Shown: positions 32,311 to 34,011 of the stretch, piece by piece
How positions within the stretch are numbered: position 1 is the first letter of the stretch
Layout: every line of letters begins with the position of its first letter
NCBI GenBank assembly: GCA_018649885.1
Contig: JABIHA010000126.1
Location: 62,001 to 102,238 of the forward strand
Direction: 5' to 3'
DNA from: Bacteriovoracaceae bacterium
GTDB lineage: Bacteria; Bdellovibrionota; Bacteriovoracia; Bacteriovoracales; Bacteriovoracaceae
DNA length: 40,238 nucleotides
Made by a program: the position numbers and the translations under genes
The notes under the pieces: model-generated
What the model saw: only the letters and a program-made list of their open reading frames with translations
Databases searched by the model: none
Told to the model about the DNA's origin: nothing

Positions 32311-33267
32311 TTATTTATGAAGCTTTAGAAACCGGATGATATCTTTTCTCATGGGAGGAGTTATCTCATCTGCTACATCTTGATATATTCGAAAACTACA
32401 ATTGCACCCATAGTCTTTATATATTTTTCCTATTTTTCTATATCGTTTGATAGGACTGCTTCCAAAGATCTCAACTACCTTTGCTTTTTGCTCTTCATCC
32501 ATTCCCTCTTTGAGGTCCAGTACATCCCTTGTGTCATTATTGCCTTGGTAAAAGAGCATGGGAATTTCTTTGGCCTCTTTCCAGCGAAAGTATTGACCAG
32601 TGATACTTCTAATATCATCTGTTCCAAGAGGATAATCTAAATCATTTCCGTGCCATATTTTTTTGGGAACCATTGGCATTCCCCCTGTGGGTCCTATTAG
32701 CGCCGCTTGGACCATTCGAGGATGAAGAAGAGTAAACCTATTTGTAAAAAGGGCCGACTTCCAGTAACCGGCCATTAAAACCTTAGGATGGGTACTGTAG
32801 CCACGTGACTCAAGTCTACCTCTAAAATCTTCAATCATTCGAATTAGCTGGATATCAATTCTTTTTAACTTGCCCTTTCTCACCATCAAAGTATCACGAT
32901 CAAGTGAATGAGTGTCATACCACCAGTACTTTTCTGAACGTGGAAAAACAGGTCTCATTATTATCAGATTGATATTTTCAGCAATGGCATTAACCGTATA
33001 ACCCGTTTTTTCAAGTCCAAGTTCTAGATGAAAATTCATCACATTTTCTTCCCTATTTGAATAGTAGGGAAGAACTAAAATTCTATTGGTTTTTTCAACT
33101 TCTAAAGTTGAAGGAATATAGTAGTAATAGGGCCAATTAAAGCCACTGCTAACTTTTGCTTTCACTTTATGAACTTTACTCTTAATAATATAAGCATGTT
33201 TACTACATCCAAGTAGAGCAGTAAGCAAAATTAGAAGAAGGGGCACTAAACTAAGTTTTCTACGCAT
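32311..33267 (-). CDS. Alpha/beta-hydrolase-fold lipoprotein, probably catalytically inactive
   Basis: ATG 33267 gives MRRKLSL... with lipobox LLGC. HSLDRD and RIDIQLIRMIED are present. The nucleophile elbow reads AGYWKSALFTNRF. Confidence 0.75.
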   Translation of the reverse strand: MRRKLSLVPLLLILLTALLGCSKHAYIIKSKVHKVKAKVSSGFNWPYYYYIPSTLEVEKTNRILVLPYYSNREENVMNFHLELGLEKTGYTVNAIAENINLIIMRPVFPRSEKYWWYDTHSLDRDTLMVRKGKLKRIDIQLIRMIEDFRGRLESRGYSTHPKVLMAGYWKSALFTNRFTLLHPRMVQAALIGPTGGMPMVPKKIWHGNDLDYPLGTDDIRSITGQYFRWKEAKEIPMLFYQGNNDTRDVLDLKEGMDEEQKAKVVEIFGSSPIKRYRKIGKIYKDYGCNCSFRIYQDVADEITPPMRKDIIRFLKLHK

Positions 33268-33356
33268 AATTATATTATATATGAAAGCGGGCCAGCTCCC
33301 AATAAGATGCAAAATACGCTTAGTTATGCGTAGAGTGGCTGAGTATTCTAATCAGT

Positions 33357-33458
33357 CTAGGGAAGTAGTGGAAGAACTGAAGCCTGTGCTTCAAGCAAAA
33401 TAGTAAGGCCAATAAGTGAAATAAACATAGAAAGAATGTAGGTGTTTGCTAGGCTCAT
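33357..33458 (-). CDS. Unannotated 33-aa hydrophobic peptide MSLANTYILSMFISLIGLTILLEAQASVLPLLP
   Basis: Strong RBS AAGGAGGAG before ATG 33458, TAG at 33357-33359, and one TM-length hydrophobic stretch. Confidence 0.65.
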   Translation of the reverse strand: MSLANTYILSMFISLIGLTILLEAQASVLPLLP

Positions 33459-33549
33459 TTGTCTCTCCTCCTTGAGAAATCAATAAATTTCATTTAATGG
33501 GTCCGACCCATTTAAGGACCTCTCCTAGTCCTTTGATGAGTCATTAAAA

Positions 33550-33565
33550 AGCAAGATAGGTACCA
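33550..33565 (-). promoter_or_regulatory. Sigma-54 (RpoN) -24/-12 promoter
   Basis: Minus strand TGGTAC-CTATC-TTGCT matches TGGCAC-N5-TTGCW with one mismatch and points to the small ORF. Confidence 0.65.
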
Positions 33566-33726: not shown

Positions 33727-34011
33727 ATGATCAAATTATTGGCCCTTACGGTATTACTTATTTCCAGCACAGCAAATGCAGAACTGGCCACTTGCTCATT
33801 TAGCTATAAAGGAAAAGTCACTAGAGATTTTGTGGCACTTTTAGGCCCTCAGATTTCAAAATCCTCATGCAAGAAGTTACTTAGTAAATTTAGAAAGTCA
33901 TTTTGTAAAGGCCACCGAAAACAAGCCTACGTAGAAACTATTTTTTTAAAGGCCCGAGATGGAAAAACACTCTATTCAAATCAAGGCCGAGGCACTGAAT
34001 ACTGCTATTGA
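33727..34011 (+). CDS. Small secreted Cys-containing basic protein
   Basis: GGAG RBS before ATG 33727, signal peptide ending ANA, 4 Cys, Lys/Arg-rich. Confidence 0.72.
   Translation: MIKLLALTVLLISSTANAELATCSFSYKGKVTRDFVALLGPQISKSSCKKLLSKFRKSFCKGHRKQAYVETIFLKARDGKTLYSNQGRGTEYCY

What the first reader, a model, noticed from the sequence alone, without database searches (positions are those of the whole stretch)
33357..33565. Hidden module: sigma-54 promoter, GGA-loop hairpin leader and a 33-aa membrane peptide
Seen in sequence (minus strand): TGGTAC-N5-TTGCT at 33550-33565 predicts a start near 33539. The roughly 80-nt leader holds two hairpins, AAGGAC-TAGGAGAG-GTCCTT (33514-33533) and AATGGGT-CGG-ACCCATT (33496-33512), both presenting GGA in or at the loop. 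A very strong AAGGAGGAG RBS follows, for 5 GGA motifs in total, then the ORF MSLANTYILSMFISLIGLTILLEAQASVLPLLP. Known: CsrA/RsmA binds GGA in hairpin loops and SDs, sigma-54 promoters need an enhancer-binding protein, and single-TM peptides act as regulators or type I toxins. Inference: this is a doubly controlled small protein, or a dual-function Csr-sponge RNA, that is invisible to standard annotation.
Basis: partly seen in the sequence, partly recalled or inferred. Interest (0 to 1): 0.78.

Follow-up and report, generated by a model that had tools for sequence, protein, structure and literature searches.

The report
CsrA-gated sigma-54 orphan membrane peptide
A marine bacterium from a family of bacterial predators carries an unannotated 33-amino-acid hydrophobic reading frame behind a sigma-54 promoter motif and three GGA-loop hairpins, likely a small membrane protein whose translation is held off by the RNA-binding regulator CsrA; the same control design recurs on other genes across the family, but we found no relative of the peptide.

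Summary
Every described element is present. The genome (Bacteriovoracaceae) encodes RpoN, 8 enhancer-binding proteins, CsrA and FliW. The promoter fits the genome's own sigma-54 sites, which mostly precede exported proteins. The ORF has a top-1.4% SD, gene-like codon use and a terminator-like hairpin; public gene calls sit on the opposite strand instead. Only 2-3 of the 5 GGAs look like usable CsrA sites, which favours a repressed leader over a sponge. Sigma-54 plus tandem GGA hairpins recurs in relatives on dksA-like (covarying stems), subtilase and other small genes, so the design is a family-wide analogue, not a homologue. One metatranscriptome contig covers the unit (weak hint). No relative of the peptide was found, by weak searches, so a truncated remnant remains possible; a type I toxin is unlikely. 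The scan noted this design before on other DNA (e1-9914452, e1-9860439). Verdict: probably a real, overlooked sigma-54/CsrA-controlled small membrane protein, a new member of known kinds; interest 0.42.

The parts
33550..33565 (-). sigma-54 (-24/-12) promoter motif TGGTAC-N5-TTGCT; predicted start near 33539
   Evidence: T at position 4 also occurs at matching sites before one lipoprotein gene in three relatives, L079-L081
33514..33533 (-). hairpin 1, 7 pairs, loop AGGAGA; predicted CsrA site; same GGAC/GUCC stem type as the first hairpin of dksA-like leaders in one related genus
   Evidence: top 8.7% of 675 background GGA sites
33496..33512 (-). hairpin 2, 7 pairs, UCGGA at the tip; weak predicted CsrA site 21 nt from the hairpin-1 GGA
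   Evidence: top 22% only
33454..33487 (-). hairpin 3 (core 33462-33479): SD AAGGAG shown in a hexaloop matching WCANGGANGW; lower stem pairs with the AUG.
   Evidence: (top 4.7%)
33357..33458 (-). 33-aa ORF: one hydrophobic helix (about residues 8-22), A-Q-A at residues 24-26, no Lys or Arg, net charge -1
33309..33332 (-). weak terminator-like hairpin (5 pairs) with T tract, 25 nt after the stop
   Evidence: (3 found in 2.8 kb, 1.7 expected)
33259..33334 (-). alternative long stem (arms 33334-33321 and 33272-33259, 13 of 14 complementary) that competes with the terminator hairpin and would cover the next gene's ATG; the one RNA contig ends at 33259
33274..33302 (-). separate sigma-70-like promoter (TTGGGA-17-TATAAT) placed so that the next gene would be leaderless
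   Evidence: 10 of 12 matches; ATG at 33267 has no SD
32311..33267 (-). downstream neighbour: 318-aa predicted lipoprotein with alpha/beta-hydrolase-like fold and its own signal peptide; context only
33281..33403 (+). 40-aa antisense ORF called by public pipelines; probably spurious
   Evidence: no SD and codon log-odds about -2 bits

Best explanation
This is likely a real, stand-alone small gene: a sigma-54 promoter predicted to make a 230-280-base message for a 33-residue single-helix inner-membrane peptide, whose translation CsrA would block by binding the GGA hairpin loops. Shown in sequence: promoter motif, three hairpins, SD, ORF, terminator-like end, and the genes for RpoN, enhancer-binding proteins, CsrA and FliW. 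Inferred: (1) one of the 8 enhancer-binding proteins fires the promoter together with the genome's sigma-54 set of exported proteins; (2) a CsrA dimer binds an upstream loop (hairpin 1, or weakly hairpin 2) and the SD hexaloop of hairpin 3, which stabilises the stem over SD and AUG; (3) FliW, freed when flagellin is exported as in the B. subtilis and C. jejuni circuits, pulls CsrA off and a very strong SD gives a burst of peptide; (4) the peptide inserts in the inner membrane and modulates a partner membrane protein. Step 4 is the weakest; no partner is identified. My odds per step: promoter real 0.85, ORF translated 0.75, CsrA binds the leader 0.7.
For: Promoter statistics. 50 of 55 sigma-54 sites of 16 bits or more with an SD-led ORF start with a hydrophobic stretch, against 659 of 1313 background genes; 10 of the 55 ORFs are under 80 aa. 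Regulators present; csrA in 144 of 145 good-quality family genomes. The CsrA has K7, S11, I25 and E45, four of five residues tied to repressing activity in PMC13443453 (section read; positions counted by eye). Leader statistics. Positive controls: 6 of 7 flagellin leaders hold 3-5 GGA; 24 of 30 dksA-like genes have a sigma-54-like site and 20 of 30 have a loop-presented GGA, against 89 of 1409 background leaders; 7 of 11 stem pairs change on both sides in 12 such leaders. A pattern for sigma-54 plus WCANGGANGW hits 21 of 236 family genomes against 2 control matches, and leads into subtilases, small ORFs and ORF-less RNAs. Coding signal. One metatranscriptome contig, 33259-33520, begins 19 nt inside the predicted start and is the deepest of 5 full-length contigs in 20 kb; weak, one study.
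Against: No homologue of peptide or leader found. A covariance model of dksA-like leaders ranks the target only 18th of 32 genome hits. Hairpin 2 and the stem GGA score like background. The loop score is post hoc and finds only 3 of 7 flagellin leaders. The start region is not unusually closed: 24.6% of 525 strong-SD genes are as hard to open. TGGTAC departs from the usual TGGCAY, and no enhancer repeat or IHF site stood out upstream. The peptide lacks the basic N-terminus that 144 of 152 signal-like genes have. The RNA contig runs about 50 nt past the terminator-like hairpin, contigs give no strand, and the run was picked because it held this stretch.
Confidence: 0.45

Rival explanations
1. 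Truncated remnant: promoter, leader and signal peptide of a formerly longer sigma-54 exported-protein gene whose body was lost, perhaps when the neighbouring hydrolase gene arrived.
For: The ORF reads like a signal peptide plus 7 residues; most sigma-54 genes here are long exported proteins; subtilase genes in relatives carry a similar three-hairpin leader; the downstream hydrolase is found in only 2 of 236 family genomes; inherited codon bias would persist for a while.
Against: A terminator-like hairpin sits 25 nt after the stop; no similarity of leader or peptide to those subtilase or dksA-like genes beyond background (1 of 14 leaders in the top 1%, 0 of 14 peptides in the top 5%); no parent gene in the genome; other short hydrophobic sigma-54 ORFs of 47-76 aa exist here and a 38-aa one behind a GGA leader in G026.
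Confidence: 0.2
2. Mainly a CsrA-titrating message, like the C. jejuni flaA leader: the abundant RNA soaks up one CsrA dimer and the peptide is secondary.
For: Three loop-presented GGAs, unmatched in 1409 leaders; 21-nt spacing of hairpins 1 and 2 equals that reported for flaA (PMC4894983, passages); deepest RNA contig in 20 kb.
Against: Only 2 sites score well; no CsrB/Rsm Rfam match; FliW is present; better sponge candidates without an ORF exist in relatives (L138-L140); the ORF shows coding selection.
Confidence: 0.12
3. The gene is real but the hairpins are only 5'-stabilising or translation-damping structures; CsrA plays no part.
For: Two of five GGAs are the SD and one is paired; fold z only -2; site scores are modest.
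Against: The SD hairpin matches the high-affinity CANGGANG hexaloop; GGA loops are kept while stems covary in analogous leaders.
Confidence: 0.1
4. Precursor of an exported signal: signal peptidase I cuts after A-Q-A and releases the last seven residues, as Phr and PapR precursors do in Firmicutes (recalled, not from a call).
For: Hydrophobic core followed by A-X-A and exactly 7 residues; lies in an export-dominated regulon.
Against: No basic N-terminus; neither neighbour looks like a TPR-type receptor; no relatives; no Gram-negative precedent that I know of.
Confidence: 0.08
5. Type I toxin held silent by its structured leader and an antisense RNA.
For: Size and single hydrophobic helix fit; SD and AUG lie in a stem.
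Against: No charged C-terminal region, which PMC10730256 lists for the C. difficile candidates and B. subtilis toxins (passage); no plus-strand promoter-terminator pair across the unit; no match over 16 nt elsewhere in the genome; single copy; no PADLOC or Pfam hit.
Confidence: 0.05

Closest known systems
CsrA-repressed two-loop leaders in FliW organisms: C. jejuni flaA and B. subtilis hag (PMC4894983 and PMC7652899, passages read)
   Same: GGA in leader hairpin loops with one loop covering the SD; CANGGANG hexaloop; csrA beside fliW and flagellar genes; in C. jejuni, RpoN-dependent transcripts are also CsrA targets.
   Different: The message encodes an orphan 33-aa hydrophobic peptide, not a flagellar protein; three hairpins; nothing has been tested here.
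CsrB/CsrC and RsmX/Y/Z sponge RNAs (PMC7652899, PMC4894983, passages read)
   Same: Short transcript with tandem GGA stem-loops.
   Different: Only 2-3 usable sites, a strong SD and a coding-like ORF, no Rfam match, and a FliW-type lineage.
Sigma-54 GGA-hairpin leaders of Bacteriovoracaceae dksA-like and subtilase genes (scan note e1-9860439)
   Same: Same promoter type, first hairpin a few bases after the predicted start, 65-105-nt leaders, SD-proximal GGA.
   Different: No sequence homology shown; different cargo. Not experimentally described in the papers found.
Type I toxin peptides (PMC10730256, passages read)
   Same: About 30-60 aa, one hydrophobic helix, structured leader.
   Different: No charged C-terminus, no antitoxin RNA found, single copy.
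Phr/PapR signal-peptide precursors (recalled)
   Same: Short ORF that is mostly a signal peptide plus a few C-terminal residues.
   Different: Gram-negative host, no basic N-terminus, no adjacent receptor gene.

Membership tests
sigma-54-dependent promoter | GG-N10-GC (-24/-12) motif fitting the genome's consensus in non-coding DNA | tested here: met
sigma-54-dependent promoter | rpoN and enhancer-binding proteins encoded | tested here: met
   (8 matches at E <= 1e-30)
sigma-54-dependent promoter | upstream enhancer site | tested here: inconclusive
   only 5-bp inverted repeats and no IHF consensus in 165 nt upstream
sigma-54-dependent promoter | start mapped 12 nt downstream, RpoN-dependent | not testable with these tools
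   only assembled contigs were served
CsrA-repressed mRNA leader | two or more GGA sites in loops, one overlapping the SD | tested here: met
CsrA-repressed mRNA leader | csrA encoded | tested here: met
CsrA-repressed mRNA leader | loops conserved with covarying stems in orthologues | tested here: inconclusive
   no orthologue found; shown only for analogous dksA-like leaders
CsrA-repressed mRNA leader | direct binding and repression | not testable with these tools
   needs EMSA and reporters
CsrB/Rsm sponge RNA | many high-affinity GGA loops | tested here: not met
   2 of 5 sites in the top 10%
CsrB/Rsm sponge RNA | non-coding | tested here: not met
   strong SD and coding-like ORF
CsrB/Rsm sponge RNA | Rfam CsrB/Rsm match | tested here: not met
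   E up to 10
type I toxin-antitoxin | small hydrophobic peptide | tested here: met
type I toxin-antitoxin | charged C-terminal region | tested here: not met
   no Lys or Arg, one Glu
type I toxin-antitoxin | antisense antitoxin RNA | tested here: inconclusive
   no candidate by consensus scans; no stranded RNA data
type I toxin-antitoxin | toxic on overexpression | not testable with these tools
   bench test
Phr/PapR-type peptide precursor | signal peptide with basic n-region, hydrophobic core and A-X-A site | tested here: inconclusive
   core and A-X-A present, basic n-region absent; no dedicated signal-peptide predictor was available
Phr/PapR-type peptide precursor | adjacent TPR-type receptor gene | tested here: not met
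   neighbours are a hydrolase-fold lipoprotein and a 94-aa exported protein without family hits

The most novel reading that the evidence does not exclude
The ORF is the precursor of a seven-residue exported peptide signal in a Gram-negative predator, released only when a sigma-54 activator fires and FliW lifts CsrA repression, and it is one output of a family-wide sigma-54/CsrA circuit that times exported proteases, a DksA-like regulator, small peptides and sigma-54-driven CsrA sponge RNAs in Bacteriovoracaceae.
Probability: 0.08. Interest if true: 0.78.

Novelty: new member of a known kind. Interest (0 to 1): 0.42.

Why it matters
By itself this is one overlooked small gene that public pipelines call on the wrong strand. 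Its value is as a pointer. PMC13443453 (section read) says very little is known of CsrA control in Bdellovibrio although a transposon screen tied csrA to predation, and the Bdellovibrio papers I read in passages (PMC12622784, PMC5430801) describe attack-phase control through FliA with no mention of RpoN. Here a large sigma-54 set of exported proteins, with a subset carrying CsrA-type leaders (subtilases, a DksA-like gene, small peptides, apparent ORF-less sponges), gives concrete candidate CsrA targets in predatory bacteria that can be tested with existing reporters. Seven literature searches found no description of such a regulon; subscription papers and supplements were not searched.

Tried and rejected
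Homologue searches, all negative: blastn and tblastn in the own genome (the best-looking hit lies inside another gene); DNA against 60 relatives (best 27-nt chance match); peptide against 236 family genomes; phmmer over 1.84 billion representatives; word search; ESM Atlas, best 0.80; Pfam, PADLOC, Rfam. These are weak negatives: the self-match is only 53.9 bits and the neighbouring exonuclease's best relatives are about 30% identical. The loci-by-protein tool could not take so short a query, so metagenome contigs were probed only through the 94-aa neighbour, which returned one 100% identical contig. Synteny through the hydrolase: 2 of 236 genomes, neither with a matching sigma-54 site in the loci read; the 29 exonuclease loci from relatives were fetched but not inspected. 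A promoter-plus-SD pattern over GTDB contigs gave 15 hits, none titled as this family and none a similar peptide. A covariance model of dksA-like leaders did not single the target out. The 38-aa peptide of L137 does not align with the target and is itself an orphan. Strain variation: none listed over the unit in two DNA runs, so no dN/dS. A csrA presence/absence contrast was impossible because csrA is near universal. Opening energy of the start region is ordinary. The AlphaFold helix is expected for any hydrophobic peptide and was given no weight. Plasmid searches added nothing. Low-share sequencing runs were not used as habitat evidence.

Full report
Observation. The details need correcting. 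One GGA is buried in the hairpin-1 stem, hairpin 2 exposes only GG, and two GGAs are the SD itself. A third hairpin, not noticed, places the SD in an AAGGAG hexaloop closed by C-G and U-A, and its lower stem pairs with the AUG. That matches the ANGGAN/CANGGANG high-affinity loop described for CsrA/RsmE (PMC7652899 and PMC4894983, passages).

Host. Source names on proteins of same-family genomes give Halobacteriovorax marinus and Bacteriovoracaceae. The genome is the only one of its genus in the searchable set, and the neighbouring exonuclease's best relatives are about 30% identical, so conservation tests have little power. It encodes RpoN, 8 sigma-54 activators, CsrA next to a flgL-like gene and FliW and 7 flagellins.

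Promoter. The motif at 5-nt spacing has 64 matches, 50 of them non-coding; other spacings give 0-4 non-coding matches. A matrix trained without the target scores it 20.9 bits, where 38 of 40 genome sites are non-coding (training sites included). The T at position 4 is a minority form (4 of 50), also seen before one lipoprotein gene in three relatives. Of 55 sites of 16 bits or more with an SD-led ORF, 50 begin with a hydrophobic stretch, against 659 of 1313 background genes; 10 are under 80 aa. The sigma-54 set here is largely an export set that includes several very short genes. No enhancer site was recognised.

ORF. The SD is as strong as in 56 of 3999 genes. Synonymous codon use favours a gene by 3.9-4.5 bits, reached by 0 of 5000 non-coding draws; the antisense 40-aa ORF that public pipelines called scores about -2 bits and has no SD. 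An ORF of 25-60 aa this hydrophobic follows 0.34% of 11,325 SD-less non-coding ATGs. A weak terminator-like hairpin lies 25 nt after the stop, and the next gene has its own sigma-70-like promoter placed for a leaderless start, so the unit looks self-contained. The peptide has one hydrophobic helix, A-Q-A at residues 24-26, seven more residues, and no Lys or Arg; only 8 of 152 signal-like genes lack a basic N-terminus. It is absent from 15 billion catalogued proteins, and no relative was found.

Leader. Five or more GGA occur in 7 of 1446 comparable leaders, WCANGGANGW near the start in 26 of 3999 genes. On a post hoc score, three loop-presented GGA hairpins occur in 0 of 1409 leaders and 0 of 1000 shuffles and in no other of 71 sigma-54 leaders. 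Against this: fold z is only -2.05, the score finds just 3 of 7 flagellin leaders, and the start region is not unusually closed.

Relatives show the design, not the gene. Sigma-54 plus a GGAC/GUCC hairpin hits 15 of 236 family genomes, control 4; five hits are leaders of a DksA/TraR-like gene. Of the 30 best such genes, 24 have a sigma-54-like site and 20 a loop-presented GGA (windows not identical to the background's). In the 12 with a strict promoter match, 7 of 11 stem pairs change on both sides, 83% of cells pair, and slid controls pair 24-45% (related sequences, structure taken from one of them). The genome's own copy on contig C8 has the same tandem loops. Sigma-54 plus WCANGGANGW hits 21 of 236 genomes, control 2. 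Of 23 loci outside this genome, 10 lead into ~500-aa exported proteins (3 of 3 tested are subtilases), 3 into short ORFs of 38 or 78 aa, 3 are ORF-less GGA-hairpin RNAs, and 7 are long leaders, other genes or likely chance. A site matrix from the dksA-like leaders puts the target's SD loop in the top 4.7% and hairpin-1 loop in the top 8.7% of 675 background GGAs, the other three at 12-22%. A covariance model ranks the target first in the window but 18th of 32 genome-wide, and pairwise scores show no homology. The leader is therefore an analogue with two good sites and one weak one, the pattern of a repressed mRNA rather than of a sponge.

Expression hint. One metatranscriptome holds the stretch. 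Its only contig in 2.5 kb spans 33259-33520 and is the deepest (8.3) of 5 full-length contigs in 20 kb (2.2-5.3 for the others). It starts 19 nt inside the predicted start, does not cross the promoter, passes the weak terminator and ends at the base of a long alternative stem. This is one study, unstranded, selected for holding the stretch; I give it little weight.

Mechanism and rivals. Most likely (0.45): activator-dependent sigma-54 transcription, CsrA clamping hairpin 1 and the SD loop, relief by FliW, and a single-pass inner-membrane peptide acting on an unknown partner. All binding and timing steps are inferred from the B. subtilis and C. jejuni circuits and from the report that Bdellovibrio CsrA represses a hag reporter (PMC13443453, abstract, passages and section 37). 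Rivals: truncated remnant 0.2, CsrA-titrating message 0.12, CsrA-independent hairpins 0.1, exported heptapeptide 0.08, type I toxin 0.05 (PMC10730256, passages).

Novelty. CsrA-repressed leaders, CsrA targets under RpoN (C. jejuni) and small membrane proteins are all known kinds; this is a new, orphan member. Seven searches found no account of a sigma-54/CsrA export circuit in Bacteriovoracaceae; in the two Bdellovibrio papers searched for it, 'RpoN' and 'sigma54' did not occur. Supplements were not read. Earlier scan notes describe the same design on other DNA; they are unchecked and are not counted as support. Interest 0.42.

Noticed in passing
L138, L139, L140, from about 26 nt after the matched sigma-54 site (genomes G111, G112, G113): About 100-nt sigma-54-driven stretches with 4 GGA-loop hairpins, no SD-led ORF and, in two, a U-rich end: candidate CsrB/RsmY-like sponges in a FliW lineage; no Rfam match at this place.
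   Followed up: partly
L102-L131; own genome C8:38913-39437: A DksA/TraR-like gene across the family has a sigma-54-like promoter and tandem YAGGANG hairpins with covarying stems.
   Followed up: yes
L141, L143-L149, L154, L160: Exported subtilase-type genes with sigma-54 promoters and 66-85-nt leaders, GGA in the first loop and in an SD hairpin: candidate CsrA-gated predatory proteases.
   Followed up: partly
L137:1336-1449 (-); L142:1633-1866 (+); L159:914-1147 (+); L152, L153: Other sigma-54 transcripts with GGA-rich leaders: a 38-aa orphan hydrophobic peptide, a 78-aa exported protein, and long leaders with 7-8 GGA, one with a faint CsrB match, E 0.21.
   Followed up: partly
own genome C9, C10, C20, C29, C72, C5, C76: Several other short (47-76 aa) hydrophobic or signal-peptide ORFs behind sigma-54-like sites, probably under-annotated.
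   Followed up: partly
window 33259-33334 (-): A 13-of-14 inverted repeat competes with the weak terminator and would cover the next gene's ATG in read-through RNA; the single RNA contig ends exactly at 33259.
   Followed up: partly
window 32311-33302 (-): Predicted lipoprotein with a hydrolase-like fold, apparently leaderless from its own sigma-70-like promoter; found in 2 of 236 family genomes.
   Followed up: partly
window 33281-33403 (+): Public pipelines call a 40-aa ORF here, antisense to the likelier gene; no SD and non-coding-like codons.
   Followed up: yes
own genome C73, C35, C94, C57, C134 flagellin leaders: Six of seven flagellin leaders hold 3-5 GGA, several in hairpin loops, and some loops read AAGGU instead.
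   Followed up: partly
window 33727-34011 (+): Divergent 94-aa exported protein with four cysteines and no family hit; only an identical copy found in metagenome contigs.
   Followed up: partly
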